Virus record (IMG/VR): IMGVR_UViG_3300045741_000623 | Span: 1 to 64,000 of that record | Source of the DNA: a virus | Length of the DNA stretch: 64,000 bases | Strand: one strand, 5' to 3' | Part shown: positions 11,810 through 26,004 of the stretch, piece by piece | Position numbering within the stretch: position 1 is the stretch's first letter | Layout: each line of letters begins with the position of its first letter | Translations under genes and position numbers: made by a program | The notes under the pieces: model-generated | What the model saw: only the letters and a program-made list of their open reading frames with translations | Database searches by the model: none | Told to the model about the DNA's origin: nothing

Positions 11810-12156
11810 CCGCCCAGTTCTTTCAGATTCGCGGCGCTAAGTTCCTGAAGAATTGATTCCTGGGGTTTACGGAGGTACGGAAATTTGAAGTTATGCCGGC
11901 GCAACCAGCGCCAGTGATTGCGCATTCGCCAAGGATTTACCTGAGTCCCGTAAAGGAAGGCGACGATCACGTCCAGTTTGACGCCATTCCAACTTCGTTT
12001 GCGCGCCGTCCGCAGATAGGTGCGTTCAGATAGCCGTGACCGCGCAACAATGACGGCGAGCGGGGTGCGGCGGCTTCGAGTCCTCGCAAGAGCGTGAGCC
12101 AGAAACGGCGGACACTTCGTCAGTTCATCCAGGGGGGTTTTCTTTGGGTACGCCAT
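11761..12156 (-). CDS. hypothetical basic protein (possible DNA-binding)
   Basis: The ORF track gives 11761..12213. I prefer the ATG at 12156 (MAYPKKTPLDEL...). Very Arg/Lys-rich. Its 3' end overlaps the convergent 10010-11809 gene by ~49 nt, which lowers confidence. Confidence 0.35.
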   Translation of the reverse strand: MAYPKKTPLDELTKCPPFLAHALARTRSRRTPLAVIVARSRLSERTYLRTARKRSWNGVKLDVIVAFLYGTQVNPWRMRNHWRWLRRHNFKFPYLRKPQESILQELSAANLKELGGQTSNESNRKALKATS

Positions 12157-12550
12157 TCGTTTTTGCCTTTTTCTGGTCGAATTTTTCCCGAATTTTTTTG
12201 AATGCCGGTTCACTCATCGGCACGATTTTACCCGCTAACCCTTGTTGCTTGAGAAAGTCCGACATGATGAAGGCATATTCCTCGCTGACGATGCAAGCGG
12301 TATAGCCGGCAGCCAACATCTGCTTGCAAGCGGAGCAAATGGATTTCGTGAGGATCGCATTGGGGTCAACCGTCGCGTTATCGAAAGTTTTTCCGCAGAC
12401 CGCGCAGAATTGCCGGGGACCAAACATCAAACCCGCTTTGCGATTGCGCCGCGTGGTTTGTTCGATGCGCCGCACCTCGCGGCGCATCATGCCGAATGCC
12501 CGGCGCAGGTTGTCCGGATTCGGCCCGTTGTTGTTTGGATTCTCGCTCAA
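12125..12550 (-). CDS. hypothetical zinc-ribbon protein
   Basis: 141 aa. CAVCG ... CSAC four-Cys pattern. 4-nt overlap with the upstream gene on the minus strand. Confidence 0.5.
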   Translation of the reverse strand: MSENPNNNGPNPDNLRRAFGMMRREVRRIEQTTRRNRKAGLMFGPRQFCAVCGKTFDNATVDPNAILTKSICSACKQMLAAGYTACIVSEEYAFIMSDFLKQQGLAGKIVPMSEPAFKKIREKFDQKKAKTNGVPKENPPG

Positions 12551-12861
12551 TTGGCGTGCTTGCCTTCCACACCACGTTTCACGCGATCCGCAGTGCGCTT
12601 TTCAAGCCACATCAGCGCACTCTCAATGTGCGTTAGCGCGATGTCGTTTTCGCGGCACGGAAACTTCCCTTGGAGATAGTGCAGCCGATGAATTAACACC
12701 TTCAAGACTTCCTCATTCGTCGTCCCGTCTTGAACCGTCTTGAGTTCGGATTTTCCTTTTGCCACCGGTGTTTTCTTGATGAAGCGCAGTGGTTGTCTGA
12801 AGTGATCTTTCCCCTCGCAGTTGTCGAGTTCGTAATGATGGCCGACATCGTGTATCAACAT
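12547..12861 (-). CDS. Acb2/Tad1-hairpin-like small phage protein (candidate cyclic-nucleotide sponge)
   Basis: 104 aa. The C-terminal TVQDGTTNEEVLKVLIHRLHYLQGKFPCRENDIALTHIESALMWLEKRTADRVKRGVEGKH matches, from memory, the widespread phage module NG..nE.lL.i..dRL..fQ.G.f.CrEN..A.t.lE.Al.WL..Rt..R..RGVEG. I believe this module is now named the Acb2/Tad1 hairpin domain. Confidence 0.4.
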   Translation of the reverse strand: MLIHDVGHHYELDNCEGKDHFRQPLRFIKKTPVAKGKSELKTVQDGTTNEEVLKVLIHRLHYLQGKFPCRENDIALTHIESALMWLEKRTADRVKRGVEGKHAN

Positions 12862-12891: not shown

Positions 12892-15800
12892 TCAAGCAAG
12901 ACTCAACCGCAGACGCCGCCTTGCTGGACGCCGAATGCCGCGCACCAACCGGGGACCGACTCGCAGCCGGCCAATTTTCGTGCTTCCACGTAAGCTGAGA
13001 CGTCGTCCGCCCCGGAGACCAAGACGACCGCGCACGAGCCCGGGCCGACGCGCGGCGCGAATGCTTCCACCAATGCCGCCGCGTGGCATTCTGATACCGG
13101 CGCCGCCACCTGAAACGAGCCCACCCGCGCCCGCCAAGCCGCGTTCCGAAGCGAGTCCACCTGTCGCAGCCAAACCGCCACTGGCCGCAAGACCGCCACC
13201 TGTGTCGTTGCCCAGGTTCAAACCGCCGCCGGCTACTTTGGCCGGTTTCGTGGGTTCAAGCCCGATTGCCTGCGCCGCAAGCTTGTCCGCGCTGTTTGTC
13301 AGCTTGGAAACCAGTTTCCGGGCGTCTTGCGGGGTATCACTGGCGATCGTGTCGATGTCGTCCAAAACGGATTTCTTGAGCAATGCCCCGCTCTTGAGGG
13401 TGAACTGGGCAAATTGGTCATCGGTCAATGTCCCGTATTTTTCTTCAAGTGTGGCCCGGCGCAACACCGGCGGGGCGGCAGATTGCGCAAGAAGCGTCTG
13501 ATACAACTTTCGGTTCTCGGAATTGTCGGCAACCTGAAACGCGATCGGCACGCCCGTGTCCGCAATCTTTCCGTACCAAGTTTGATTGCCGAGTTTATCT
13601 CCAAACCGGTTCACAGCCGGACGTTGCATGAACGCCAACACCGGGAAACTCGCCAGCATCGCCGCTTGCATGCTGGAGGTGTCCACTTTGCCCATGGTAA
13701 TGTCCCGCATGCTACGTTGAAGACCGAGAAACGGCATGGTGGCGGAAGCAGTCACGCCGGCTATCCTTTGAGCAAGGGCCGTTTCCGAGCCGCCTTGGCT
13801 TCCGAACGCTTGACCCCAACTTGTCAAATTCTGAATCAACCCACGCTGGCCCATCAAGTTGATGTAGTTGCCCAAGCCGTAAGCCGATGTTTTCTCCCAC
13901 GTCTCCGTAAATGGATTTCCGGTGGATTCCTTTTCTTTCTTGCGCCAATTGTAATCGTCGCGAGCGGAGAGAATCCAAAACAGATGCGACATCGGTTCAC
14001 CCAACCTTGTCAACGGTACCGTGATCGCTTTGCCGTTGTGAAACATGACGAGCGAATTCGGGCGGAAACCCTGTTTCAACCAAGCATCCTGCAAATTGCG
14101 GTTGGACGGACCCATGCCCGTCACGAAAACGTTGTTCTTGCGGTCGGTGTCATTACTATTGGCGCTCTGCCCCCATAGCGCGAATCCAGTCGCAGTTAAC
14201 ACCGCTTGAACCGCCGTAGCTGCAAGCGCCTGTTTAAGCCGATATTTCTCCTGATACTCGTTGGCCAAAGATTGCTTGAACCAACGGGTTTCGCCGTGTC
14301 TCTTCTGGTATTCATGGATGCCCAGTCGGAGCAATCCATACGGACTGTTCCACGCGTAGAATCTTGCCGTGCGCAGCGGGATCGCCAGATAACCCATGAC
14401 CGCAACTGCGAGCATACGATCCTGTGAAGTGCCACGCCGCATTAGCGACGAGATGCGTAGAACGGTGTGGATAAATGCGTGCGACATTAACCCACCTTCC
14501 TCCGCTTCGAGAACACCCGGCGCCAGCCGTCCCACGCCGGCATACGCATCGTATTCAGCGGCTTTGCGCGCTTCCCGGGCGGCATCAGTTCCTTCCCGCC
14601 CCTTGACACCCCTTTCTTGGATCGCCTGTTTTATTTCCGATTGCAAAAGATCGACCAACAACGCGTCAGCATGAACCATCGCCCGGGTGCTGGAGTAACC
14701 ACGCCTCAGACCGTCCAAGTAAGCGGTTTCCTTGAGACGATGCGAAGCTTCAACCAGATTGCCGACATCGCCCGTGGTTAGACCAGCGGCGCGCATGGCT
14801 TCCCCGCCGTACATGACGAGTTGCGCTTCTCGAATTGACACCGCGCTTGCTTGGTCGAATGCGTTGAGCATCCGCATGAAGAACTGTTGCGAACCGTACA
14901 ACACTTTGATTACTCCCTTCGCGCGCCGCGCGGGCTCGCCACTGTTCAAATCGGTGCGTCCAGACTCGTACATGCGGCGCAACTCATTGCTGGCTGGCTC
15001 GAATTCGTTGTTGATGAACGTGTAAGCATCCGTCGTCACGGAATACTTAAACTCGTGCATGAAACTTTTGAACGCCGTCACCACTGGACGCCATGTTTCA
15101 TAGATTCGATGTGGAGCGGCAACGGTCATCAACGCGCGGTCCAGCGCCATCCACAGGGCTGGGCCCAAATAATTGATCGTGAAGGTGCGAATCCCCGTCA
15201 GGTTCGTTGCGATGAAATTCGAAGCGATGGAGTGAACCAGCGAAGGAGGCAAGCGCATGTGGAGGTAAATTCCCATCATGCGCTCGGTAATTTCTTTCCG
15301 CTCGATCAAGGTCAATTCGCCTTTCTGGTCCGACAATTCCATGTCCCACTCGGCAAGTTTCTTCCATTCCTCGGACGTCGGCAGCCGCCAGCCGGCTTTG
15401 CGTGCATAAGCCTCCGTCCAGGGTTTGTTCGGATCAGTCAATCCAACCCGGAACGCTTTGATGAATTCGTCCACGGATTCGGCGCCTGAAATTCTGGAGG
15501 TCAATCGCTTGGCCAACTCATCGGCTGCTTTATTCAGCGCGGTATTGAAACCTTCCTCGAAAAGTTGAACGGCTTCGGCAACGCGTTCGCGCCCAACGCC
15601 GTTGCTCAGAAACCATCGGGTTGCGACGTCATCGCGCCACGCTTTGGTTTGTTGCAGCAGAAACGGTGCGGCGATGATTTCGTCCATCAATTCGGCAATT
15701 CGTCCCGACTTTGCGGCGCGTTCCATGACGCGCACATTCGCGCTGGCGAACTGAGCCGAACGATCGTTGCCGACCGCTTGAGCTAATTCCTGGCGCACGA

Positions 15801-18800
15801 CCGGGTCCTTGACGCCAGCCGCTTCGAGCTTTGCCATGAGTTCCTGAAGGAACGGGTCCGGCACGAAAGGTTGACCTGCCGAAACATCCGTTATTGGGCC
15901 AATCCGCTTCGACGCTTCCAACGCGCCGTATTTTTCAATGTCTTGCTGGCTAGGTTTGATCTTCAGCGCTTCCCGAATGATTTCGCGCACCTGATTGATG
16001 ACGTCAGGCTTGACCCATTCCGCGCCGCGTTTCAACTCCAGTTGATTCAAAATGGCTTTCGCCGTTGTCTCTGCCAGACCCGCATTGCGTTTGGCTTCCT
16101 GCTCCCATAGCCGTCGGCGCCGATTCGAGTCCAGCATTTGCTTGCGGCGTTCAACTTGAAACGCCATTTCATCAGCCGTTTTCTTGGAGACACCCGCACG
16201 CAACATTTCGGCGGTCATATCTTCAAGGGAAACTTCGCCTTTCAGATATTTCTTGATGGCATCTTGCGCGAGACTCTTTCGATCCGGTTGCAGGAATTCA
16301 ACCGCATCTTGCGCCCAGCGCGAAAGCATGCCTTGAACTTTCGTATCTTCCCAGGTCGCTTCTTTGAGCCGCGCACGTTGCGCCTGTGTCCATTCGCGTT
16401 CGAGACGCACACTCCAGATGTTGTAGGCAAGCTCATCCATCTGCGCTTGCACCTTGGCTTCGTCGATCTCGATCTTTGGAATCTCCCTTGTCGGCTTGAA
16501 ATCCTCGCCGCCGGCAATTGCACCCGCCTCGTTCGCTTCCCGAATCTTGATGTTCTTACGCTCGATCTCGGCATTCGCCCGCTTGACGTAATCCTGGGCT
16601 GCCGCGAATAAATCGTCGGAAAGCTTGCGCTGGAATGCTTCGGGTCCGCCCGGAATATCCGCAATCGTCTTGCCACTAAGGGACTTTCGGAGTGCTTCCT
16701 GAACGATCTCTTTCATCCGATTGGTCACTCCGCTATCGACCCATTCGGTTGCCCGTTTTTGGTAGTTGTCCAAGAGTTGCTCGGCGTACTTTAATTCATC
16801 CGCCATCGCCAGCTTGGTAAGCCGTTCCGAAATGATTTGGGGAATGTCAGATGCCTTGACCTTTGGGTCGCCGAGTTCTTCTCGGATCACGCGGACAATC
16901 TCGCCCAATCGTTGGTCCCCAAACAGTTTGGTTTCCTTGAGGTCTTCAATGCCCTTGAAGATTTGCCGGGCGTTGTACCAAAGTGGACTTTCAGCCCCGG
17001 GACGACGTCCGCGCAGAATTGAACCCGCGACGGACCCGGACACCGCACCGAATCGGCTCGCAATGTCGGCATCGCGTTCGACCATAAACCGGAGCAAGAC
17101 TTGGTCGCCCGTGTCGCGCACCATGCGCACGGCGTAATCCCACGCATCGGACAGCATGATCGAGCCTGCCATTCTTTCGAGTGAAACCCCTTCGAGCCGC
17201 GCCAGTTCCGCTTGTGCTTGGGCTGGATCAACAAGCCGCGCCAGCAACGTTGCGACTCGCGCCGTGGTTTCGGGCGTCACGGGTCCGGTGAAATTCCATT
17301 CTGGTACCGCCCTTAACCTTCCCTGAATCTCGTCGATCTTTTCACGCGGATACTCAGGACCAATGGGCTCGCCGTAAACCTGCCGCCAACTGCGCTCCGT
17401 GTCGGCCCAGGCGAGCTCGGAATGATAGTCTGGCTGCAATGGACCGTACTCGTACCGGCCCCGGATCATATCCTGCCAGATTTCCTCGTCACGCGTGGTC
17501 AACTTGAACGCGCGGCGGATCATGTGGTAGAAGTCGCGTAGGATGTCCTTGAACCGTTCGAGCATTGTACGATCGGCTGGCCGCAAAAACTCTTTCACGG
17601 CGCGTTCGTTCATCATGTGCGCCCAGAACTCGTCACCGTTGATGAGGGGGTAAAGATCACGCAAAACGCGTTCGTTGTCGGAAGTCAGATGACTCACGAA
17701 TTCATGGCTTTCCATCGGCCCTTCCTTGAGCAAGCGGAGCAAGTTAATGCGCTGGTCCGCTTCCGCCGCCATGATCCGCGAGCCGTTGGCGTCAGCCCGG
17801 TTGCGGTCCTGATAAGCCTCGGCAAGTTTCAAGATGACTTCTTCGCGACGCCGGTCAATCGCCCATTGGCGATCTTCGTTGGTCATGTAGTTGAAGATAT
17901 GGTGGAGGATTTCTTCGGCTGTCACCTTTCCTTCCGCCGCCGTGTGCAGCCGCATCAAGCTTTTCCACCCTTCATCAAACGTCATCTCGCCCAAGCCCGT
18001 CCGATGCTGGAACGGGCCAGAATCAGCCATTTTTATCCAGTTGGTAAGCGCCAGCCTGAAGCCGGGAAGCGTGTCCCAAGACTTGGAAGTGACAAGGTGC
18101 CGCAAGATTGCCCGGGTTTCCTCGTTCATCATCACGTTGCCGCGATCCAGCAGCGCGAGAATGTCCGCCTTGGAATCGGCAGTAACAGTCTTCCAACGTT
18201 CGCCAAGCGGGGTTTGTTCGCCGTTCGTGGTAACGAGAGCCAGACTTGACGGTCGTCCACCGGCGCGCGTGCGCAACAGGGCGATAACCTCTTTCAATCG
18301 CTGGCGCTGTTCCTTGGTGAAAGCTTTCCGGGTTGTGGCGTCCTGATCGTTGACGGCAAGCTGACGTTCAAGAATGTCGGCAGCTTTAGCGGGATCACCG
18401 TACAACCGTTCAGCCGCATTTGCCGATTTGATTGGGTCAACTTCCTTTGCGACATCCTGAATACTGAACAGGTCATTCTGCTCAAGTTTCTGGTCGCCAA
18501 ACAACGTTTGATCCTTGGCCGGCGGAACTACCTTCGAAATCTCAACGGGTGATTCTTCTTTTTTTTTAGGCTCCGGCGCTGGGGGCGCAAATTGATCGGC
18601 AAGTTCCGGATTTTTGCGCAACTGCTCGATCTTGGATTCGAGTTCCGCAATCCGCTTGATGATGCCTTCCGGGTCTTTTACGTCAACACCGTGCTTGGCA
18701 GCCAGTTCCGGATTCTCTGCTGCGCCTTGAACTGCGTCGATTTCAGCGCTGAAACTCGCAATGAGTTTCTTGGCTTTTTGCCAATTGACTTCCCACTCCT

Positions 18801-21800
18801 TTACCAGCGAGTCGTCAGACGACCAGAATTGCCCTTGCTCACCCCTTTCGACCATCTGGATTGCCCGGTTTTTCTGCTGTTGCAGAAGTCCAGCAATGTC
18901 CTCGGCAGAGCGTCCTGCTTTGGCAAGTCTCCGACCTAAGTTCTGGGCAGCAGGGTTATTCGGCGACGTGCGCGCGATGGCGACGGCTTGCGCTTCCTTG
19001 ACGAGTCCGTTGACGTAGTCTGTCCAGAGATCATCCGTGCTGTTTTTGCCCAAGTCCCAGCCGGCACGGCCCTTAGATCGCGAAAGTAAGCCAGCCTCTC
19101 CGGCTTCTCGTTCTCCGAGATTTGTGCTTTGTTTGAAGAAATCTGCATAATCTCTGACGCTACCCTTTTCATCGCGGATATTTGAGATGGCGTCAAATAC
19201 TTTCGCTTGGGCAATCGTAAAATCCGGGCCCTCATTGACGATTTGCGCCGGAATAGTTTTCTCCCCGGTGCGTTCGGCAAGATCAAGCCGGTGGCGTCCG
19301 GTGACAATCTCAAGGTCGCCATTCAATCGCCGGATAAGCACGATCGGGGCATTGCCCAAACGTTCATATTTTCCGCCAAGCTCTTCCCCCCGGACAACCC
19401 CACGAGCATTGGCGTTTCGTTTGAACTGCCGAATGTCTTTGCTGAACTTGATTTGAGCCAGTGGAATTTCCTGGGTGGGATACTTTCCAGCATCGAGCGT
19501 GGTTACGACAGGTTGCGGTTCTGCTGGCGCAATTCGTTTGGGCGACTTGGGCTGAAGACCGGGCGTGGGCGGCGCAATGGGCTGCGGTACGGGTTGACCG
19601 CCCGCTTTAATGATGTTGAGGCGGTTACGGCGTTTCGCGGCTGCATCGGTTTTCTCGTAGTAATCGTTCCAAGTCTTGACGTCATGCCCGAGATAGGGCG
19701 TAAAATCGGCAGGAGAAAGCCCCTGCTCCAGCCACCGGTCGCCGCGAAACGATCGCATATCGTTCGCCGACATCGTATATCCTTCTGGCATCCCGAGACT
19801 GCGCCACAACGAATTGATATACGGATTGAGAGAGTGCGTGTCCTTCCATGTTGGCAACAGAACCTTATTGGTCGGCACACTCGGGTCCCAAGCTTTGTTG
19901 TAACCTCGTTCGCCAGCTTGCACGCGAGCCAATCGGTCCTGGTACAACCGCTTCAGGAAATCGGCGAGACCCGGGCTCAAACTTGGATCAAGCGGAAAGT
20001 CTCGAAAATGGCCTTTGCCCGACTTTTGCATGCCGCGATTGACGCCCGGAATGTGGATCACGCCATTCGCCCAATCAATGTCTCCCCATTGCAATGCGTG
20101 AGCTTCACCGGGGCGCGCACCAAGGAATGCCAAGAGTTCAATTGCATCGGCAATCGTCCGATAGTTTGAGTCGCGACCTTCAATCGAAGCTGCTTTTCCA
20201 GTTCGCCGCCATTCTTCCAGGCGCGCAAGCAGTGCCGGCGGAATTTCCCCCGGTTTAGCCTGTTCTCCACCAAAATCCCACCACGCGGGTTTGACGTTCG
20301 TTTGCTGATAATGACGCGGATTGGTGTCCCATTTCCGGACTGGATCATCCTCGGCAAGCCGAATCGGATTCTGTTGGATAAGACCAGATTTTCTGGCGGT
20401 TTCTAAAGCGGACCAAAGACGTGCCTTGGCTTTTTTCCACATCTCGTAAGACTGCGTTTTCTTCGCTTCCTCCTGCATCGCAAACAAAGCATCGACCGTA
20501 ACGTCTTGCGGTTTCGCTGTTCGCAAGTCGCCAAGGCCAGCACGCTCCCAAACGCGCAAGGCGGTTCGCACGTTATCGCGATAGTTAGTCGCCAAGTTCT
20601 CAACAACTTTTGGTTGATTCGCGCGCGTGACGTTTTGGCGGACATCGTCCCCAAGCGTCTTGCCGAACAATTCGCCCATAGACCCGGATTCGTGTGCGTC
20701 TGAGGCTTCCCAAGGAATGACCGCTTTTGAGGTGACGAGATTTTCCAACCGCGACCGCTTGGGTTCTTCTGGTGCTGATTCGCCGGTAAGCTCGTAAAGC
20801 GCTTTTCTCGCCGATCGCTCGTCCCATGTCTGTTTGAAATTGTCTCGAATATGCTGCAATGCAGCAGCCACGGCATCCGCTACCTTGCCACCGCCCTCAA
20901 TTACTCTCGCCAACACTTCAAGTGCCCCGTTCCAGACCGAAGGTGGAACGATGGTCATGTAAGTTTGACCGCGTTCATTGGTTAATTTCGCGGCTCGAAT
21001 CTTTGCTGCGAGTGAGTTAGCAGCGCTTTCGAAGGTAGCAGGTTGAGCAGGCGCAACGGGTGCCGGCGCCGCAGGTGGCACCGGCGGTCCCGCTGGTTCC
21101 GGAATTACTTCCGGCCCTTGCCTTTGCACTTCTTTGCCACTTGGGATCACCCCCTTTCCTAAATCTGGTGCTACCGGAGCGACAGGCGGCGCTGGCGGCG
21201 GGGTTTCCGCAACGGGCGCGACTGGCGGTGGTACTTCGGGAGGCGTCCCGGGTTGTCGAAGTGGTGTTTCCGGGCCCAAGCCTCCCCCTTCTGGCTGAAC
21301 GCCCACTTCCGCTGCTGCTGGCTGACGGCTGGCATTTTGTGCTCCTTCCTCTGTTGTCACGACTCCGTGTTTGCGTAATTCCTGTCGCAAAAGTGATCTG
21401 ACATTGCGCCATTTTATCTCGCGACCATGCTGTCTCTGAACCTCGTCAATGAACGTGTCAATCTCTGGAATTGGTCTTCCTTGGCGACCAACCAAATCGA
21501 CTTTTCGACCGAACAGAATTCCCTGTGCCGCCCGCTTAAGACCATCCTCAGTCAACGGTTCACTTCGATTTGAGTAGAACACCGGCTCTTCCGGCTTCGG
21601 CAGAATTGCCTTTTCAGGCGGCGTTGCGACCTCGTAAACGTCCTTATTTTTGTCGTAGCGATAGTCCCAAGTGCCCATCTCATTCCCAAGCCCTGCCAAC
21701 CTGACAATCGTACCGTCAATCGGAGCGCGTTCTTCCGGTTTCTCCTTGCTCGTCTGCGTTCGAATTGCCTCGTTCGCTTGATCGAACATGTCTCGACCGG

Positions 21801-22812
21801 CTTGAATGACGTCTTCGTCACTCGCTTTCTGCGCCGCCTCAATGAACTGGTTGTAAAGATCGGTTCGTTTCTTCTCAATCCGACTCGCCCGCGCGGCACC
21901 AGCTTTGTGCAACAAGCCACTGGCAAGATTGAGCATGACGAACCCGGGGATGCTACTGCCCGTCTCTTCAAACATCCGCTGGGGGTCAATCGGCTGGCCA
22001 TGAATCAAAGCATCGTACAACGTGCTCGCCGTTGTAAGCACGGCGGCATCTGCCGGCGCTTTGCCGAGGGTCATGCCAAGCAAAGTCTTCGCAGCAGGAA
22101 CGAAACTGAGCGCCCCACCTTCGGCGGCCCCTTTTATTCCGGCGTCAACGATGTCCGCCAGATTCTTTCCTTGGCCCGCCGCTTCGCCAGCGCTCATACG
22201 GGCGAACCCAGTCATTGCCGGGAGAACCCCAGCTTGCCAACGTTCCGCGTAAGTTGGCAGTCGTCCGGCTTTTGTTGCAGTTTCAAGGATGCGATTGCCG
22301 AGTTTGGCCACGGCAGGCCCGCCGCCGCCCAGGGACGAAATCAACATCGGAATCATCGCGCCCATCTGGGTTGCGATCGGATGCACCTTTAAGTCGGCGT
22401 CAAGTTGCGCTTGGTTTTCCTCATACCACTTCTGGCCCATCACCGATTTCTGAAGATTCGTAGTGAGTTTGTTCCCAATGGTACCAGCGAGAATATCGCC
22501 GCCGATAGCGCCAGCAACCATGCCGACCGGCCCTGTCTCCGAAAGTAAACCCGCACCGATTCTTGAGCCTAACGCGCCGGCAGCGAGAGTGCCGACCGCC
22601 GGAGCGGCGCCAGTGGCAAAGGCGCGACCAGCGCTTGCGAGTGCCCCTTCGGGTTGAACCGTCGAGACGGTGACATCGGAATTATTCAGGACGGGATAAT
22701 TCGACGGACTTGCGAAGTTGTAGGGAGACGGTTCCGGAACGTCCGCAACGAAATCTACTTGATCCGCTGCTGTTGATTCGACATCCGGAACAAAATCAAT
22801 GGTTGCGCCCAT
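12892..22812 (-). CDS. giant (3,306 aa) multi-domain virion/ejection 'polyvalent' protein candidate
   Basis: Uninterrupted 9,921-nt ORF. N-terminal Gly/Ala hydrophobic zipper-like stretch. Pro-rich linkers. Internal tyrosine-recombinase-like and ParB-like domains. Long helical/charged region. Hydrophobic segments at ~nt 14170-14420. Gly-rich then Arg-rich C-terminal tail. Co-oriented with three low-complexity proteins. Confidence 0.75.
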   Translation of the reverse strand: MGATIDFVPDVESTAADQVDFVADVPEPSPYNFASPSNYPVLNNSDVTVSTVQPEGALASAGRAFATGAAPAVGTLAAGALGSRIGAGLLSETGPVGMVAGAIGGDILAGTIGNKLTTNLQKSVMGQKWYEENQAQLDADLKVHPIATQMGAMIPMLISSLGGGGPAVAKLGNRILETATKAGRLPTYAERWQAGVLPAMTGFARMSAGEAAGQGKNLADIVDAGIKGAAEGGALSFVPAAKTLLGMTLGKAPADAAVLTTASTLYDALIHGQPIDPQRMFEETGSSIPGFVMLNLASGLLHKAGAARASRIEKKRTDLYNQFIEAAQKASDEDVIQAGRDMFDQANEAIRTQTSKEKPEERAPIDGTIVRLAGLGNEMGTWDYRYDKNKDVYEVATPPEKAILPKPEEPVFYSNRSEPLTEDGLKRAAQGILFGRKVDLVGRQGRPIPEIDTFIDEVQRQHGREIKWRNVRSLLRQELRKHGVVTTEEGAQNASRQPAAAEVGVQPEGGGLGPETPLRQPGTPPEVPPPVAPVAETPPPAPPVAPVAPDLGKGVIPSGKEVQRQGPEVIPEPAGPPVPPAAPAPVAPAQPATFESAANSLAAKIRAAKLTNERGQTYMTIVPPSVWNGALEVLARVIEGGGKVADAVAAALQHIRDNFKQTWDERSARKALYELTGESAPEEPKRSRLENLVTSKAVIPWEASDAHESGSMGELFGKTLGDDVRQNVTRANQPKVVENLATNYRDNVRTALRVWERAGLGDLRTAKPQDVTVDALFAMQEEAKKTQSYEMWKKAKARLWSALETARKSGLIQQNPIRLAEDDPVRKWDTNPRHYQQTNVKPAWWDFGGEQAKPGEIPPALLARLEEWRRTGKAASIEGRDSNYRTIADAIELLAFLGARPGEAHALQWGDIDWANGVIHIPGVNRGMQKSGKGHFRDFPLDPSLSPGLADFLKRLYQDRLARVQAGERGYNKAWDPSVPTNKVLLPTWKDTHSLNPYINSLWRSLGMPEGYTMSANDMRSFRGDRWLEQGLSPADFTPYLGHDVKTWNDYYEKTDAAAKRRNRLNIIKAGGQPVPQPIAPPTPGLQPKSPKRIAPAEPQPVVTTLDAGKYPTQEIPLAQIKFSKDIRQFKRNANARGVVRGEELGGKYERLGNAPIVLIRRLNGDLEIVTGRHRLDLAERTGEKTIPAQIVNEGPDFTIAQAKVFDAISNIRDEKGSVRDYADFFKQSTNLGEREAGEAGLLSRSKGRAGWDLGKNSTDDLWTDYVNGLVKEAQAVAIARTSPNNPAAQNLGRRLAKAGRSAEDIAGLLQQQKNRAIQMVERGEQGQFWSSDDSLVKEWEVNWQKAKKLIASFSAEIDAVQGAAENPELAAKHGVDVKDPEGIIKRIAELESKIEQLRKNPELADQFAPPAPEPKKKEESPVEISKVVPPAKDQTLFGDQKLEQNDLFSIQDVAKEVDPIKSANAAERLYGDPAKAADILERQLAVNDQDATTRKAFTKEQRQRLKEVIALLRTRAGGRPSSLALVTTNGEQTPLGERWKTVTADSKADILALLDRGNVMMNEETRAILRHLVTSKSWDTLPGFRLALTNWIKMADSGPFQHRTGLGEMTFDEGWKSLMRLHTAAEGKVTAEEILHHIFNYMTNEDRQWAIDRRREEVILKLAEAYQDRNRADANGSRIMAAEADQRINLLRLLKEGPMESHEFVSHLTSDNERVLRDLYPLINGDEFWAHMMNERAVKEFLRPADRTMLERFKDILRDFYHMIRRAFKLTTRDEEIWQDMIRGRYEYGPLQPDYHSELAWADTERSWRQVYGEPIGPEYPREKIDEIQGRLRAVPEWNFTGPVTPETTARVATLLARLVDPAQAQAELARLEGVSLERMAGSIMLSDAWDYAVRMVRDTGDQVLLRFMVERDADIASRFGAVSGSVAGSILRGRRPGAESPLWYNARQIFKGIEDLKETKLFGDQRLGEIVRVIREELGDPKVKASDIPQIISERLTKLAMADELKYAEQLLDNYQKRATEWVDSGVTNRMKEIVQEALRKSLSGKTIADIPGGPEAFQRKLSDDLFAAAQDYVKRANAEIERKNIKIREANEAGAIAGGEDFKPTREIPKIEIDEAKVQAQMDELAYNIWSVRLEREWTQAQRARLKEATWEDTKVQGMLSRWAQDAVEFLQPDRKSLAQDAIKKYLKGEVSLEDMTAEMLRAGVSKKTADEMAFQVERRKQMLDSNRRRRLWEQEAKRNAGLAETTAKAILNQLELKRGAEWVKPDVINQVREIIREALKIKPSQQDIEKYGALEASKRIGPITDVSAGQPFVPDPFLQELMAKLEAAGVKDPVVRQELAQAVGNDRSAQFASANVRVMERAAKSGRIAELMDEIIAAPFLLQQTKAWRDDVATRWFLSNGVGRERVAEAVQLFEEGFNTALNKAADELAKRLTSRISGAESVDEFIKAFRVGLTDPNKPWTEAYARKAGWRLPTSEEWKKLAEWDMELSDQKGELTLIERKEITERMMGIYLHMRLPPSLVHSIASNFIATNLTGIRTFTINYLGPALWMALDRALMTVAAPHRIYETWRPVVTAFKSFMHEFKYSVTTDAYTFINNEFEPASNELRRMYESGRTDLNSGEPARRAKGVIKVLYGSQQFFMRMLNAFDQASAVSIREAQLVMYGGEAMRAAGLTTGDVGNLVEASHRLKETAYLDGLRRGYSSTRAMVHADALLVDLLQSEIKQAIQERGVKGREGTDAAREARKAAEYDAYAGVGRLAPGVLEAEEGGLMSHAFIHTVLRISSLMRRGTSQDRMLAVAVMGYLAIPLRTARFYAWNSPYGLLRLGIHEYQKRHGETRWFKQSLANEYQEKYRLKQALAATAVQAVLTATGFALWGQSANSNDTDRKNNVFVTGMGPSNRNLQDAWLKQGFRPNSLVMFHNGKAITVPLTRLGEPMSHLFWILSARDDYNWRKKEKESTGNPFTETWEKTSAYGLGNYINLMGQRGLIQNLTSWGQAFGSQGGSETALAQRIAGVTASATMPFLGLQRSMRDITMGKVDTSSMQAAMLASFPVLAFMQRPAVNRFGDKLGNQTWYGKIADTGVPIAFQVADNSENRKLYQTLLAQSAAPPVLRRATLEEKYGTLTDDQFAQFTLKSGALLKKSVLDDIDTIASDTPQDARKLVSKLTNSADKLAAQAIGLEPTKPAKVAGGGLNLGNDTGGGLAASGGLAATGGLASERGLAGAGGLVSGGGAGIRMPRGGIGGSIRAARRPGLVRGRLGLRGGRRLSLRGSTKIGRLRVGPRLVRGIRRPARRRLRLSLA
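19230..19480 (-). other. ParB/Srx N-terminal-like domain inside the giant ORF
   Basis: IPLAQIKFSKDIRQFKRNANARGVVRGEELGGKYERLGNAPIVLIRRLNGDLEIVTGRHRLDLAERTGEKTIPAQIV. The V-x-G-R-H-R segment is equivalent to the ParB DGxHR box. Confidence 0.65.
19640..20590 (-). other. tyrosine recombinase (phage integrase family)-like domain inside the giant ORF
   Basis: Box I: AIELLAFLGARPGEAHALQWGDIDWANGVIHIP (Arg I). Lys-containing hairpin: MQKSGKGHFRDFPL. Box II: SANDMRSFRGDRWLEQGLSPADFTPYLGHDVKTWNDYY (Arg II, LGH His, terminal Tyr). The His of the canonical HxxR is Asn here. Confidence 0.65.
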
Positions 22813-22813
22813 T

Positions 22814-24124
22814 TTACGGCGGAAGTTTATAGCCCTTGGCTAAAGCTGATTTGAGTTGGTTTGCTGGGATTTTTCCGCGAACTCCGAGCGGACTGATTAC
22901 TGCGACCTGATTGCTTGTCTCGTAGTTCTTGAGAGTCTGTTGATATTTCTCAATTGCGCGTGCTTGGCGAAAGGCGCGAATGGGAGCGGCGCCAAAATAA
23001 TCCGCAACCCGAGCTTCCTTTGTTTGTTCGTCGATGTTGGGCAAGGCAGTTTCTTCCGTCACCCGGTCCAACTCTTTCTTGGCTGCCTTCACGTCTTCGA
23101 GCGTGGTGACTTTACGCTGCGAAGATGGCGCAGGTTGCGTCGCGATACTTACCGGAGGCGGAGCAGCGGTGACAGATGGCGGCGCGGCGGGTTGCGGTGT
23201 TGAGGTTGTGGTACCACCAAAATACGGTGACGGTTCGATTCCCTGGGCTGCGGCTGCCGGCGACGCAAATGAGGTGCCGGTCAATGTGGCCGTCGCGAAC
23301 GGATTTTCTGGCGGCGCTGGCGGATTTTCACCCCAATGTTGCAACATTGCTTCCGTGTCCACTGTCTGCGGCGGGTTCATGTTCAAGTTGGCGTTCCACT
23401 CGAATTGACCAGTCCCGCGATTAAACGCGACCTTGGATCGAAACTGCTCCGGAATACGCGCTTTGATTTCGCGTTCGATGTTTGTCAGAAAATAATCCGC
23501 GTTCTGCTTGAGTTTCGAAGGATCAATTTTAGCCATCGCGCGCGCAGTCGCGGCATTTGCTCCCGACAACATTCGATCGGGATATTGGCTGTGCAATTCT
23601 TCCGTCAACGATTGAACGCGATCGGGCTTGAGCGCGAACATAGTTCCGAGTGACTGCGGCGACATCTCGAAAGCTGCATCCGGATTTTTCGTGACGAATT
23701 CCATCAACTTCGATTCACCCGCAATTTGGGTTTGCTTCGCCTTTTCGGCATCGGCGATTTCACCTTGTTTCGTCGCGACATCGAAGTATCGCTGGTGGTA
23801 TGATTTTTCCTCTGCCAACCGGTCTGCGGCAAGTTTCGCCGCCGTCATCGCTTCCCAATTGCGCCGCTGTTTTTCTTCGGCGTCTCCTTGCTCTTTCAGA
23901 GCGAGTTGTTGAGCCGCCTGTTGCCGGGCGTAATCCTGGGTTTCATTGGAGCGTGCGAGTTGATAATAATTCTGCGCGTTCTGAATCAGTTGTTGGTCGT
24001 ATGCCGTTTGCCGGCCAATGTTCGCTTCCTGACCCGCGCGGTTCGCCTGTTCCCACTGATAAATCTGCGGGATCATCGTATCCGTCGCGCCACTCGACCA
24101 GATTGGAAAGGATGGGTTAGGCAT
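22814..24124 (-). CDS. hypothetical protein (internal virion/ejection block candidate)
   Basis: 436 aa. The N-terminal two-thirds are Gln/Ala/Glu-rich and coiled-coil-like. Pro/Ala/Thr-rich central linker. 1-nt spacer to the giant ORF downstream. Confidence 0.55.
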   Translation of the reverse strand: MPNPSFPIWSSGATDTMIPQIYQWEQANRAGQEANIGRQTAYDQQLIQNAQNYYQLARSNETQDYARQQAAQQLALKEQGDAEEKQRRNWEAMTAAKLAADRLAEEKSYHQRYFDVATKQGEIADAEKAKQTQIAGESKLMEFVTKNPDAAFEMSPQSLGTMFALKPDRVQSLTEELHSQYPDRMLSGANAATARAMAKIDPSKLKQNADYFLTNIEREIKARIPEQFRSKVAFNRGTGQFEWNANLNMNPPQTVDTEAMLQHWGENPPAPPENPFATATLTGTSFASPAAAAQGIEPSPYFGGTTTSTPQPAAPPSVTAAPPPVSIATQPAPSSQRKVTTLEDVKAAKKELDRVTEETALPNIDEQTKEARVADYFGAAPIRAFRQARAIEKYQQTLKNYETSNQVAVISPLGVRGKIPANQLKSALAKGYKLPP

Positions 24125-24127
24125 AAA

Positions 24128-25684: not shown

Positions 25685-25689
25685 AAATT

Positions 25690-26004
25690 TTAGGGTGATA
25701 ATTCGTCAATCTGCGTCTGGAGTTCGGCGATCTTTTCTTGCAAATCGTTTATCATGCTCTCCAGGGAAGCCTTGGTCTGAGTGTTGACGCGGTTAATTGC
25801 GATGTTGGTCTGTTCACGCCATGTCTCGAAAGACGCGGTGTTATTCCGATGCCAGTTGGTAAGCTCAGGCAGAACTTTGTTCACCTTGGGCGGAATTTCG
25901 ACGTGCGCCAATCGTGGGATAACCAAATTGGTTGCCGAGTCCGAAGCCAGCTTGGCGCCGATTTGGTTTTTCGACGCCTGTTTGATTTCAATGTCCGTTG
26001 GCAT
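25690..26004 (-). CDS. hypothetical protein
   Basis: 104 aa with a C-terminal coiled-coil-like MINDLQEKIAELQTQIDEL. Part of the tightly packed minus-strand block. Confidence 0.5.
   Translation of the reverse strand: MPTDIEIKQASKNQIGAKLASDSATNLVIPRLAHVEIPPKVNKVLPELTNWHRNNTASFETWREQTNIAINRVNTQTKASLESMINDLQEKIAELQTQIDELSP

What the first reader, a model, noticed from the sequence alone, without database searches (positions are those of the whole stretch)
12892..22812. One 9.9-kb ORF (3,306 aa), mostly without assignable domains, heading an ejection-protein-like block
This ORF takes about 15% of the window. It starts with a Gly/Ala hydrophobic 'glycine-zipper'-like stretch (AFATGAAPAVGTLAAGALGSRIGAGLL...VGMVAGAIGGDILAGTIG). 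It contains two Pro-rich linkers and about 1,500 aa of helical, charged sequence with no motif I recognise. Hydrophobic segments occur near nt 14170-14420 (MLAVAVMGYLAIPL; ALAATAVQAVLTATGFALWG). It is co-oriented with, and separated by only 1-5 nt from, three compositionally odd proteins (22814-26004). That arrangement resembles the internal/ejection protein cassette of podoviruses, but this protein is several times larger than usual.
Basis: partly seen in the sequence, partly recalled or inferred. Interest (0 to 1): 0.65.

Follow-up and report, generated by a model that had tools for sequence, protein, structure and literature searches.

The report
Giant cysteine-free phage ejection protein
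This 3,306-residue phage gene most likely encodes a giant protein that is packed in the virus particle and injected with the DNA, and it carries an integrase-like and a ParB-like DNA-handling domain as cargo, a combination I found no report of.

Summary
The ORF is real: minus strand, 12892-22812, 3,306 aa. It is the last and largest of four tightly coupled genes, not the first.

It is not domain-free. It contains:
- a tyrosine-recombinase (integrase) domain at aa ~740-1061, with R, K, R, H and Y catalytic residues in place;
- a ParB/Noc/KorB-like domain at aa ~1108-1406;
- a conserved ~850-aa helical C-terminal module at aa ~2320-3165.

The C-terminal module defines an unnamed, metagenome-only family of at least 212 clusters (50% identity) of 1.3-4.8 kaa proteins. 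Relatives carry hallmark "polyvalent protein" cargo instead: SNF2/ResIII helicase, Eco57I methylase, ART-PolyVal, ddrB-ParB, DarA_C and PBECR5.

The predicted fold of the module matches C-terminal parts of viral polyvalent proteins and the "internal virion protein" of cyanopodovirus S-CBP3. It does not match T7 gp16, by sequence or by solved structure.

All four genes have 0 Cys in 4,364 aa, against 1.9% elsewhere in the window. T7 gp15/gp16 and N4 vRNAP are also Cys-free. The family also shares a duplicated acidic N-terminal motif and a poly-Arg C-terminal tail.

Verdict: a polyvalent ejection protein, a new variant of a known kind. Virion packaging and recombinase activity are inferred, not shown.

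The parts
12892..22812 (-). Giant ORF, 3,306 aa, ATG start 1 nt after the upstream stop codon
22738..22800 (-). N-terminal duplicated acidic/aromatic motif (IDFVPDV aa 5-11; VDFVADV aa 19-25). About 40 of 105 full-length relatives carry an equivalent duplicated motif in their first ~45 residues.
22297..22626 (-). Gly/Ala-rich, weakly hydrophobic 'glycine-zipper-like' region, aa 63-172. It is part of an N-terminal domain (aa ~100-360) shared with relatives P0129 and P0144.
21016..21324 (-). Pro-rich linker 1, aa ~497-599 (29% Pro in aa 501-600)
19630..20595 (-). Tyrosine-recombinase (integrase)-like domain, aa ~740-1061. Residues aligned to catalytic positions: R900 (GARPGE), K930/K933 (KSGKGHFRDFPL), N1017-x-x-R1020 (His replaced by Asn), H1042 (LGHD), Y1052 (NDYYEK).
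   Evidence: phrog_1 E 2.2e-15; Pfam PF00589 21.8 bits, below the cut-off; tblastn to integrases E 4e-6; alignment; Foldseek 3nkh E 1.8e-4, TM 0.61-0.63; homologue P0005 passes the Pfam cut-off
19498..19629 (-). Pro-rich linker 2, aa ~1062-1105
18595..19491 (-). ParB/Noc/KorB-like module, aa ~1108-1406: N-terminal ParB/Srx-type domain with TGRHR and NIRD motifs, then a helical DNA-binding-like part
   Evidence: phrog_3264 E 5.4e-5; 34-46% identity to modules in 12 relatives and 40% to Vibrio/Shewanella phage giant proteins; profile vs PDB ParB E 0.027; Foldseek 6t1f E 1.9e-5, TM 0.60
15856..18525 (-). Helical, charged region with no assignable family, aa ~1430-2319. Three to seven relatives share aa 1450-1800. 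The number sharing aa ~1800-2319 rises from about 12 to about 90 towards the C-terminal module.
13318..15855 (-). Family-defining C-terminal module, aa ~2320-3165, almost all alpha-helical. It includes the two conserved hydrophobic helices at aa 2800-2820 and 2861-2881.
   Evidence: phmmer: 212 representatives; alignment A1; AF2 pLDDT 80.4, pTM 0.77; BFVD fold matches E 1.8e-12 to 1e-4
13078..13239 (-). Gly-rich spacer with GGL repeats, aa ~3192-3245
12895..13077 (-). Poly-Arg C-terminal tail, aa 3246-3306: 20 R/K and 0 D/E in 61 residues, ending RRRLRLSLA. It is conserved in the family.
22814..24124 (-). Upstream gene, 436 aa, Q/A/E-rich with a Pro-rich centre, 0 Cys. It is 33% identical to the gene in the equivalent position in L008.
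24128..25684 (-). Upstream gene, 518 aa, G/Q/N/P/Y-rich, 0 Cys. It is 58% identical to the L008 counterpart.
25690..26004 (-). First gene of the block, 104 aa, coiled-coil-like C-terminus, 0 Cys. It is 53% identical to the L008 counterpart.
12547..12861 (-). Small gene 30 nt downstream on the same strand, a candidate Acb2/Tad1-type anti-defence sponge. It is probably in the same transcription unit.
   Evidence: Pfam PF24729 27.0 bits, equal to the cut-off, E 5e-6; conserved position in L008

Best explanation
The ORF most likely encodes a 'polyvalent ejection protein'. It is the largest and last product of a four-gene, cysteine-free internal-virion-protein operon of an uncultured phage.

Proposed mechanism:
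- The conserved C-terminal third (aa ~1800/2320-3165, plus the Gly-rich spacer and poly-Arg tail) is the part that gets the protein into the capsid. After release through the tail it contributes, with the three upstream proteins, to the trans-envelope DNA conduit. This is the gp16 / N4-vRNAP position.
- The N-terminal acidic repeats and the Gly/Ala region are a targeting and/or membrane-active leader.
- Between these, joined by Pro-rich linkers, sit exchangeable cargo domains that reach the host cytoplasm with the leading end of the genome.
- In this phage the cargo is a tyrosine-recombinase-like domain and a ParB/Noc/KorB-like domain. I infer that they bind and process the incoming phage DNA before any phage gene is expressed, for example by circularisation, end sealing/protection or loading onto DNA.

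Shown here: domain identities, family membership, synteny and the compositional signature.

Inferred: packaging, ejection, conduit formation and any activity of the cargo.
For: 1. Family. The C-terminal module is found at the C-terminus of at least 212 representative proteins of 1.3-4.8 kaa. Regions N-terminal to it are shared by only 0-26 of the 151 retrieved family proteins (149 of the 150 representatives listed, plus P0001 and P0002).

2. Relatives carry polyvalent-protein cargo:
- ResIII 8/12, SNF2 5/12, Sno-type AAA_34/Helicase_C_4 4/12, Eco57I methylase 3/12;
- ddrB-ParB 2/12, ART-PolyVal 2/12, DarA_C, N6_N4_Mtase;
- PBECR5;
- ART-PolyVal at 60 bits in an IMG/VR viral contig.

3. Fold. 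The AF2 model (pLDDT 80, pTM 0.77) matches BFVD models with probability 1.0 and TM 0.4-0.5. The matches are 'Large polyvalent protein associated domain-containing', 'ART-PolyVal-like', 'MuF C-terminal' and 'PolyVal ADP-ribosyltransferase' proteins. It also matches 'Internal virion protein' of Synechococcus phage S-CBP3 (E 1.3e-7) and a protein of cyanophage NATL2A-133.

4. Operon. Four genes are separated by 1-5 nt. The same layout, 2-3 Q/N/A-rich proteins followed by the giant, is seen in L002, L003, L008 and L009.

5. Cysteine.
- The block has 0 Cys in 4,364 aa, against 1.9% elsewhere in the window.
- The family has a Cys fraction of 1e-4.
- The genes just upstream of the giant in L002 and L003 are also Cys-free, while their neighbours hold 1.3-4%.
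- Proven ejected proteins share this: T7 gp15 and gp16, 0/2,065; N4 vRNAP, 0/3,500.

6. Precedent.
- The phi24B 2,811-aa polyvalent gp47 was found in virions by proteomics and proposed to be an ejection protein (bioRxiv 10.64898/2026.04.10.717836).
- Polyvalent proteins are predicted to be injected with the DNA (PMC5512222).

7. Cargo identity: see parts.
Against: - No capsid, portal or terminase gene was recognised in the 64-kb window, and there are no proteomic data, so virion association is circumstantial.
- There is no sequence similarity to T7 gp16 (hhalign).
- There is no significant match to any solved structure; the best PDB hit is E 0.1 and the T7 core chain 9jyy_G is E 0.87.
- There is no BLAST-detectable relative of the C-terminal module in 50,697 GenBank phage records, even at E<=1.
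- None of the Pfam hallmark polyvalent domains (LPDs, MuF, ART, ddrB-ParB) is detected in this protein itself.
- The hydrophobic stretches are too weak for classical transmembrane helices.
- In the closest relative, P0003, the integrase-like domain has lost the NxxR and His positions and is not detected by Pfam. Catalysis is therefore not conserved throughout.
Confidence: 0.68

Rival explanations
1. It is a cytoplasmic, non-packaged genome-maintenance protein. In this reading it is a fused partition/recombination factor (ParB plus integrase) for a plasmid-prophage or integrative life style, expressed after infection.
For: - It carries ParB-like and integrase-like domains.
- The block is divergently placed next to replication genes that include a separate ParB-like gene, a helicase and a primase.
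- No other integrase was seen in the window.
Against: - It does not explain the 0 Cys across four genes, or the same signature in T7 gp15/16 and N4 vRNAP.
- It does not explain why the conserved part is a ~850-aa helical module shared with proteins whose cargo is ART, methylase-helicase, DarA_C or PBECR5.
- It does not explain the fold match to internal virion / polyvalent proteins.
- The domains are embedded in 3,306 aa with Pro-rich linkers, unlike any known ParB or integrase.
Confidence: 0.12
2. It is a tail structural protein, such as a tape measure, a tail fibre or a central needle/fibre, rather than an internal ejected protein.
For: - It is very long and helical with Gly-rich hydrophobic segments, as in some tape measure proteins.
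- Convergent neighbours include a 'virion structural protein' family, and large DUF5977/VWA proteins lie nearby.
- There is one BFVD 'tape measure' hit at E 0.31.
Against: - No Pfam, PHROG or NCBIfam tape-measure or fibre family is hit.
- The significant BFVD matches are polyvalent or internal virion proteins.
- Enzymatic DNA-acting cargo is not expected in a fibre.
- The length varies 3.5-fold within the family, which is incompatible with a length-determining ruler.
Confidence: 0.05
3. The 9.9-kb ORF is an assembly or annotation artefact that fuses several genes.
For: In one relative (L001) the equivalent region is two ORFs of 646 and 743 aa in different frames, 33 nt apart.
Against: - Over 100 independent metagenomic representatives have single ORFs of 1.5-4.8 kaa ending with the same module.
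- The closest relative is collinear at 44% identity over about 2,400 aa.
- IMG/VR loci have uninterrupted ORFs of 2,991 and 3,592 aa.
- Codon-position GC is uniform, and the other frames hold 99 and 114 stops.
Confidence: 0.02
4. It is a virion-delivered protein, but the integrase-like and ParB-like modules are catalytically dead DNA- or protein-binding scaffolds. They might tether the genome end to the conduit or act as decoys, rather than as enzymes.
For: - The first His of the HxxR motif is Asn.
- P0003 has lost several catalytic positions.
- The ParB box is GRHR rather than GERR, and Pfam ParB_N and ddrB-ParB are not hit.
- No candidate recombination site was found.
Against: - R, K, R, H and Y are all retained in the window protein and in P0005 at 38% overall identity.
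- F, K, G, H, R, N, I and D positions are invariant in the ParB-like module across 11 sequences at 28-55% identity.
Confidence: 0.3

Closest known systems
Polyvalent proteins of phages and conjugative elements (Iyer, Burroughs, Anand, de Souza, Aravind 2017, PMC5512222), e.g. P1 DarB/DdrB; phi24B gp47 (bioRxiv 10.64898/2026.04.10.717836)
   Same: - It is a giant single polypeptide that strings unrelated domains together through linkers.
- It is encoded by a phage.
- Cargo is swapped between relatives on a constant framework.
- Relatives carry the hallmark domains ART-PolyVal, ddrB-ParB, DarA_C, PBECR5, SNF2 helicase and N6A methylase.
- The ParB-like module is 34% identical to one in an LPD3-containing protein and 40% identical to one in a 2,715-aa Vibrio phage protein. 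That gene lies downstream of genes annotated 'head completion adaptor' and 'stabilization protein'.
- The C-terminal fold matches BFVD models of polyvalent proteins.
   Different: - No Pfam LPD, MuF, ART or ddrB-ParB domain is detectable in this protein itself.
- It carries a tyrosine-recombinase domain. The words integrase and tyrosine recombinase do not occur in the 2017 survey, and I found no later report.
- The C-terminal module, the Cys-free signature, the duplicated N-terminal motif and the poly-Arg tail are not described there: 'cysteine', 'arginine-rich' and 'internal virion' have 0 occurrences.
N4 virion RNA polymerase gp50 (Schitoviridae), the giant third ejection protein
   Same: - The size is about 3,300-3,500 aa.
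[quoted passage not shown]
- It is the last and largest gene of a short co-oriented ejection operon.
- It has zero cysteines.
   Different: - No RNA polymerase domain or any N4 vRNAP PHROG/Pfam match is present.
- The cargo here acts on DNA (recombinase and ParB).
- No sequence relationship was detected.
T7 gp16 (internal virion protein D) and the gp13-gp14-gp15-gp16 core/ejectosome cassette; 'internal virion protein' of cyanopodovirus S-CBP3
   Same: - The gene order is small, medium, medium, then the largest protein last.
- Minimal family members (1.15-1.4 kaa) are the size of gp16 (1,318 aa).
- gp15 and gp16 are Cys-free.
- The predicted fold matches the S-CBP3 protein (E 1.3e-7, TM 0.46).
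   Different: - hhalign against T7 gp16 finds nothing.
- Foldseek against solved T7 core proteins is not significant (9jyy_G, E 0.87).
- There is no lytic transglycosylase domain.
- The upstream proteins show no detectable similarity to any known family.
Tyrosine recombinases (Pfam Phage_integrase PF00589: lambda Int, XerC/D, Cre, IntI, Tn1549 Int)
   Same: - There is a core-binding plus catalytic fold.
- It is 27-30% identical to satellite-phage integrases.
- R-K-R-H-Y are aligned to the catalytic residues.
   Different: - It is embedded in the middle of a 3,306-aa protein.
- The first His of HxxR is Asn.
- The Pfam score is below the gathering cut-off for this copy (21.8 vs 27.1 bits).
- No att, dif or lox-like site was identified.
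ParB/Noc/KorB CTP-dependent DNA clamps, and ParB/Srx-type nucleases (DdrB-like ParB of polyvalent proteins)
   Same: - The predicted fold covers the ParB N-terminal domain plus the DNA-binding domain (6t1f, E 1.9e-5, TM 0.60; also Noc and KorB).
- There is an invariant G-x-H-R box and an N-I-x-D box.
   Different: - The box is GRHR instead of GERR.
- Pfam ParB_N and ddrB-ParB models do not hit it or its closest homologues.
- No ParA partner or parS site is known.
- It is unrelated in sequence to the stand-alone ParB-like gene at 26521-27459.

Membership tests
Polyvalent proteins (Iyer et al. 2017) | Two or more domains of disparate biochemical activity in one polypeptide of a phage or plasmid | tested here: met
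   There is a tyrosine-recombinase-like domain, a ParB-like domain and a large helical module. The context is phage-like: tail fibre, PHROG virion protein and IMG/VR relatives.
Polyvalent proteins (Iyer et al. 2017) | Presence of hallmark domains (LPDs, MuF, zincin MPTase, ART-PolyVal, ddrB-ParB, SNF2 + N6A methylase, PBECR) | tested here: inconclusive
   None is detected in this protein by Pfam. Proteins sharing its C-terminal module do carry them, and its ParB-like module is homologous to one in an LPD3 protein.
Polyvalent proteins (Iyer et al. 2017) | Packaged in the virion and injected with the DNA | not testable with these tools
   This needs virion proteomics or infection assays. The indirect support is the Cys-free signature and the fold match.
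T7 gp16 / internal virion protein D | Sequence homology to gp16 | tested here: not met
   hhalign of family profile A1 against T7 gp16 gives probability 0.08. There is no Pfam or PHROG internal-virion-protein hit.
T7 gp16 / internal virion protein D | Structural similarity to solved T7 core/ejectosome proteins | tested here: not met
   In Foldseek against the PDB, the best T7 core chain is 9jyy_G at E 0.87, TM 0.06.
T7 gp16 / internal virion protein D | Last and largest gene of a co-oriented cassette of internal virion proteins | tested here: met
   The gene order is 104, 518, 436 and 3,306 aa with gaps of 5, 3 and 1 nt. The order is conserved in L008, L002, L003 and L009.
T7 gp16 / internal virion protein D | N-terminal lytic transglycosylase domain | tested here: not met
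   There is no such hit in Pfam, PHROGs or NCBIfam.
Cyanopodovirus 'internal virion protein' (S-CBP3 I3ULX4) / C-terminal module of BFVD polyvalent proteins | Shared fold of the ~850-aa helical module | tested here: met
   In Foldseek against BFVD there are 28 hits at E<=1e-3 with probability 1.0 and TM 0.3-0.5, including I3ULX4 at E 1.3e-7. Both sides are predictions, not solved structures.
Tyrosine recombinase (PF00589) | Profile match | tested here: inconclusive
   Pfam gives 21.8 bits, below the 27.1 cut-off. However, phrog_1 gives E 2.2e-15, tblastn gives E 4e-6, and the 38%-identical homologue P0005 scores 39.2 bits.
Tyrosine recombinase (PF00589) | Catalytic-domain fold | tested here: met
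   Foldseek against the PDB matches S. aureus integrase 3nkh (E 1.8e-4, TM 0.61-0.63), IntI 2a3v, Tn1549 Int, XerA, lambda Int and XerD. The model pLDDT in this part is only 55-93.
Tyrosine recombinase (PF00589) | Catalytic R-K-H-R-H/W-Y residues | tested here: met
   R900, K930/933, R1020, H1042 and Y1052 are aligned. The first His is Asn1017. The pattern is the same in P0005 and degenerate in P0003. The alignment rests on four sequences.
Tyrosine recombinase (PF00589) | Site-specific strand exchange at a defined DNA site | not testable with these tools
   A palindrome scan gave no candidate site.
ParB/Srx superfamily (ParB_N PF02195; ddrB-ParB PF18763) | Profile match | tested here: inconclusive
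   There is no Pfam hit at E<=1 for the tile or for homologues P0009 and P0106. phrog_3264 gives E 5.4e-5. The module profile against PDB ParB gives E 0.027.
ParB/Srx superfamily (ParB_N PF02195; ddrB-ParB PF18763) | ParB N-terminal fold with a conserved Arg box | tested here: met
   Foldseek matches Caulobacter ParB 6t1f (E 1.9e-5, TM 0.60) and also Myxococcus ParB, Noc and KorB. The model pLDDT is 80-95 in this part. There is an invariant G..H-R.
N4 vRNAP family | Single-subunit RNA polymerase domain | tested here: not met
   There is no RNAP family hit in Pfam or PHROGs.
Tape measure protein | Match to TMP families; length tied to tail length | tested here: not met
   There are no TMP hits. 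The family length varies from 1.3 to 4.8 kaa.

The most novel reading that the evidence does not exclude
The phage pre-loads its particle with an active tyrosine recombinase and a ParB-type DNA clamp or nickase, tethered to the ejection machinery. The incoming linear genome would then be circularised, end-sealed (protelomerase-like) or integrated, and coated, within seconds of entry. This would happen independently of phage gene expression and out of reach of RecBCD and restriction systems. It would be a virion-delivered site-specific recombinase, a cargo class I found no report of in ejected phage proteins.
Probability: 0.22. Interest if true: 0.8.

Novelty: new variant of a known kind. Interest (0 to 1): 0.6.

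Why it matters
- Injected phage proteins act before any phage gene is expressed, so they decide the outcome of the first minutes of infection.
- This protein links two concepts that have been treated separately: the podovirus ejectosome (T7 gp16, N4 vRNAP) and the 'polyvalent' anti-defence proteins. The link is a large, unnamed, metagenome-only family with one constant C-terminal module and swappable cargo.
- It adds a recombinase/ParB cargo, which suggests that genome circularisation or end protection could be delivered ready-made.
- Complete absence of cysteine appears across the whole operon, the whole family, T7 gp15/16, N4 vRNAP and a Vibrio phage polyvalent protein. This offers a simple sequence-only marker for finding ejected proteins in uncharacterised phage genomes.
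- The adjacent Acb2/Tad1-like gene hints that this transcription unit is an early-conflict locus.

Tried and rejected
- Whole-protein search of the 5.8-billion-protein set timed out.
- Tiled searches there gave one hit for the C-terminal tile, one hit for the integrase-plus-ParB tile and nothing for aa 1410-2150.
- PDB sequence searches with the whole protein, with the integrase tile and with the C-terminal profile gave nothing significant.
- NCBIfam gave nothing.
- Exact-peptide search of IMG/VR with the single protein found nothing, and alignment A1 was too divergent to search with. The narrower alignment A2 gave three loci.
- The GTDB genome scan with A2 found no prophage copy.
- tblastn of the C-terminal module against 50,697 phage records found no match, even at E<=1.
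- hhalign of the family profile against T7 gp16 and against the C-terminus of the Vibrio phage 1.211.A giant protein was negative.
- Foldseek of the C-terminal model against the PDB gave no significant hit. The weak hits to importins and membrane transporters at E 0.1-2 are treated as noise.
- Tape-measure and tail-fibre readings were rejected for lack of any hit.
- N4-type RNAP was rejected for the same reason.
- The stand-alone ParB-like gene at 26521-27459 is not a paralogue of the module in the giant protein.
- A short-palindrome scan for a lox/dif-like site was uninformative.
- The promoter and terminator scans around the block found no more sites than in the shuffled controls.
- A possible correspondence between the N-terminal Gly/Ala region and a separate 506-aa gene in L008 is only E 0.08, so it is left as a lead.
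- The search for capsid, portal or terminase genes in the window failed.


Full report
**1. The observation**

The ORF listing and translate confirm a single ORF at 12892-22812 with an ATG start and 3,306 codons, but it is on the minus strand. The other two frames of that strand contain 99 and 114 stops. GC1>GC2 periodicity holds in every 300-codon window. It is therefore a genuine coding region and not a chance ORF.

- a Gly/Ala-rich stretch at aa 63-172 with several small-xxx-small-xxx-small motifs;
- a Pro-rich linker with 29% Pro in aa 501-600, and shorter ones at aa ~1062-1105 and ~1408-1422;
- two hydrophobic segments at aa 2800-2820 and 2861-2881, nt ~14170-14415;
- three co-oriented, compositionally odd genes (436, 518 and 104 aa), separated by 1, 3 and 5 nt.

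Two corrections are needed:
- On the minus strand the giant gene is the last of the four, not the head.
- No 19-residue window reaches Kyte-Doolittle 1.5, so these are not classical transmembrane helices.

**2.

The four minus-strand genes contain no cysteine at all in 4,364 residues. Twenty-one other genes of the window hold 177 Cys in 9,301 residues, or 1.9%. The binomial P is about 4e-37.

The same pattern holds elsewhere:
- In related loci, the giant gene and most of the Q/N/A-rich genes just upstream of it are Cys-free, while every other neighbour has 1.3-4% Cys. The exceptions are the 506-aa gene next to the giant in L008 (4 Cys) and the 322-aa gene upstream in L001 (3 Cys).
- In 151 retrieved family proteins (149 family representatives, plus P0001 and P0002), the Cys fraction is 1e-4.
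- Experimentally established ejected proteins show the same property. T7 gp15 and gp16 have 0 Cys in 2,065 residues, against 1.4-2.7% in T7 enzymes. N4 vRNAP has 0 Cys in 3,500 residues.
- A 2,715-aa polyvalent protein of Vibrio phage 1.211.A also has none.

I infer a shared constraint: passage in an extended state through the tail and the oxidising periplasm. This inference has not been demonstrated.

**3. Assignable domains**

*Integrase-like domain (aa ~740-1061)*
- PHROGs gives phrog_1 (integrase) at E 2.2e-15 over aa 740-1055, and Pfam gives Phage_integrase at 21.8 bits, below the 27.1 cut-off.
- tblastn finds 27-30% identity to satellite-phage integrases over aa ~882-1061, E 4e-6.
- Two family members share the cassette. 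P0005 is 38% identical over 840 aa, and its integrase domain passes the Pfam cut-off at 39.2 bits. P0003 is 26% identical.
- Alignment with a bona fide integrase places R900, K930/933, N1017-x-x-R1020, H1042 and Y1052 at the catalytic positions. P0005 has the same pattern, and P0003 is degenerate.

*ParB-like module (aa ~1108-1406)*
- It hits phrog_3264 (ParB-like) at E 5.4e-5.
- It is 40% identical to part of giant proteins of Vibrio and Shewanella phages. In Vibrio phage 1.211.A that gene lies downstream of genes annotated 'head completion adaptor' and 'stabilization protein'.
- It is 34% identical to a module in an LPD3-containing protein.
- It recurs in 12 family members with invariant F-K, G..H-R and N-I-x-D positions.
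- Pfam ParB_N and ddrB-ParB do not detect it, and a profile search of PDB sequences gives Caulobacter ParB only at E 0.027.

*Structure prediction of both domains*
- An AF2 model of aa 720-1420 has pLDDT 70 overall, 80-95 in the ParB part and 55-93 in the integrase part.
- It matches solved ParB/Noc/KorB structures (6t1f, E 1.9e-5, TM 0.60).
- It also matches tyrosine recombinases (3nkh, E 1.8e-4, TM 0.61-0.63; IntI, Tn1549 Int, XerA, lambda Int, XerD).

**4. The C-terminal module and its family**

phmmer of aa 2101-3165 against 1.84 billion representatives found 212 proteins at E<=1e-3, of which 132 are at E<=1e-30. Nearly all are 1.3-4.8 kaa with the match at their extreme C-terminus.

Within the family, conservation depends strongly on position:
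- Almost all members share aa ~2320-3165.
- From about 12 to about 90 members share aa 1800-2320.
- At most 12 share anything further upstream.

This is a constant framework with swappable N-terminal cargo. Cargo detected in relatives:
- ResIII/SNF2/Helicase_C, Strawberry-notch-type AAA_34/Helicase_C_4, Eco57I and N6_N4 methylases, ddrB-ParB, ART-PolyVal, DarA_C and a beta-clamp domain;
- PBECR5;
- ART-PolyVal at 60 bits in an IMG/VR viral contig.

These are the signature domains of the polyvalent proteins of Iyer et al. 2017 (PMC5512222).

All members looked up are unnamed metagenomic proteins. No GenBank phage has a BLAST-detectable copy, even at E<=1, and no GTDB genome was found with one.

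Family-wide features:
- The tail is acid-free and poly-Arg. 92 of 153 sequences have at least 10 R/K in the last 40 residues, the median is 18 R/K and 0 D/E in the last 60, and the consensus ending is ..RRR-[LIV]-x-[LYF]-A.
- About 40 of 105 full-length members carry a duplicated short acidic/aromatic motif in the first ~45 residues. Examples are IDFVPDV/VDFVADV here, NGFELID x2, FDPFEAG x2 and NPFDEFD x2.

**5. Fold of the module**

AF2 on a 27-sequence alignment gave pLDDT 80.4 and pTM 0.77, almost entirely helical.

Foldseek found no significant solved structure. The best hit was E 0.1, and the T7 core chain 9jyy_G scored E 0.87.

Against BFVD it found 28 predicted viral structures at E<=1e-3, with probability 1.0 and TM 0.3-0.5:
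- 'Large polyvalent protein associated domain-containing', 'ART-PolyVal-like', 'MuF C-terminal', 'PolyVal ADP-ribosyltransferase' and 'Nuclease' proteins;
- 'Internal virion protein' of Synechococcus phage S-CBP3 (E 1.3e-7);
- a protein of cyanophage NATL2A-133.

Many of these are entries with _2 suffixes, which I read as later segments of long proteins. hhalign against T7 gp16 is negative.

**6. Context**

The closest relative locus, L008, is syntenic:
- replication genes lie on the opposite strand;
- then come counterparts of the 104-, 518- and 436-aa genes (53, 58 and 33% identity);
- then the giant gene (44% identity over ~2,400 aa);
- then three small genes and a convergent 586-aa 'virion structural protein' homologue.

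The first small gene downstream is window 12547-12861 on the minus strand. It scores exactly at the Pfam cut-off for Acb2_Tad1_hairpin (27.0 bits).

L002, L003 and L009 show the same pattern of two Q/N-rich Cys-free genes followed by the giant. They also share conserved GT2, 256-aa and DUF5977/VWA neighbours.

The window has a collagen/Mtd_N tail fibre. No capsid, portal or terminase gene was recognised.

**7. Interpretation**

The best-supported reading is a polyvalent ejection protein. The architecture is an N-terminal leader (acidic repeats plus a Gly/Ala region), linker-separated cargo and a large conserved C-terminal domain. This parallels the published description of N4 vRNAP, which occupies the gp16 slot in schitoviruses (PMC13434306).

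A 2,811-aa polyvalent protein of phi24B was recently detected in virions and proposed to be an ejection protein. Minimal family members of 1.15-1.4 kaa are the size of gp16.

What is new here:
- the cargo, a recombinase-like domain with its catalytic residues in place next to a ParB/Noc/KorB-like domain;
- the recognition of the family and its signatures.

I found no report of an integrase domain in a polyvalent or ejected protein.

Function of the cargo, all inferred: binding and processing of the entering genome (circularisation, end sealing or protection, clamp loading), or action on host or rival DNA. The degenerate copy in P0003 and the His-to-Asn change warn that it may be a non-catalytic DNA-binding module.

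**8. Limits**

- Packaging, ejection, channel formation and all enzymatic activities are inferred.
- The fold matches are between predicted structures.
- The catalytic-residue alignment rests on four sequences.
- aa 1-740 (apart from composition) and aa 1430-2320 remain unassigned.

Noticed in passing
window 12547-12861 (-): A 104-aa gene lies 30 nt downstream of the giant ORF on the same strand. It scores 27.0 bits (equal to the gathering cut-off, E 5e-6) for Pfam Acb2_Tad1_hairpin, the anti-CBASS/anti-Thoeris nucleotide sponges. It is 59% identical to the gene in the same position in relative L008.
   Followed up: partly
window ~12176-12466 (-) and ~11839-12135 (-): Two further small minus-strand genes follow the Acb2/Tad1-like gene. 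They are 66% and 62% identical to L008 counterparts and have no family hit, so the transcription unit probably runs from 26004 down to ~11839.
   Followed up: partly
window 12892-26004 (-); L002, L003, L008; T7 gp15/gp16; N4 gp50; Vibrio phage 1.211.A NVP1211A_14: Complete absence of cysteine appears to be a general signature of ejected podovirus proteins and polyvalent proteins. It could serve as a sequence-only marker.
   Followed up: partly
window 26521-27459 (+): A stand-alone ParB-like gene (phrog_21315, E 2e-24; ParB-like partition/nuclease PHROGs) is the first gene of the divergent replication operon. It is unrelated in sequence to the ParB-like module of the giant protein.
   Followed up: partly
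window 335-2377 (+) and 2305-4866 (+); L009 28829-31241: The DUF5977 protein (680 aa) and the VWA protein (853 aa) are adjacent and overlap by 73 nt. In relative L009 the same domains, plus a faint discoidin hit, sit in one 1,660-aa protein. This may be a split/fused receptor-binding or tail protein.
   Followed up: no
window 5155-7476, 9061-9999, 35358-36569, 36604-38010 (+): There is an unusual density of sugar-modifying genes: three GT2 glycosyltransferases (one fused to a methyltransferase) and a hexapeptide acyltransferase. The 773-aa GT2 protein and the 256-aa protein at 8047-8817 are conserved in all IMG/VR relatives.
   Followed up: no
window 32852-34564 (+): This tail-fibre-like protein has an Mtd_N (major tropism determinant N-terminal) domain and collagen repeats. 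No reverse transcriptase was noticed, so a diversity-generating retroelement is not implied.
   Followed up: no
whole window 1-64000: No major capsid, portal or terminase gene was recognised by Pfam or PHROGs among 43 of the larger ORFs scanned. Either the head module lies outside the window or it is too divergent to detect.
   Followed up: partly
window ~20100-21900 (-), codons 300-900 of the giant ORF: GC3 drops to 0.51-0.53 here, against 0.55-0.70 in the rest of the ORF. The dip covers the Pro-rich linker and the start of the integrase-like cassette, which may hint that the cargo was acquired separately.
   Followed up: no
L008 8386-9906 (+): The closest relative has an extra 506-aa G/A-rich gene (4 Cys) between the 338-aa gene and its giant gene. 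It has a weak match (E 0.08) to the window's GAAPAVGTLAAGALG stretch. The N-terminal Gly/Ala domain may be a separate gene there.
   Followed up: partly
L001 1726-5930: In one relative the framework is encoded as two ORFs (646 and 743 aa) in different frames, 33 nt apart. This could be a true split, a frameshift or an assembly error.
   Followed up: no
L009 2979-6056 (-): The primase-helicase of a relative carries an intein (Hom_end_hint, Hom_end and LAGLIDADG_3 hits).
   Followed up: no
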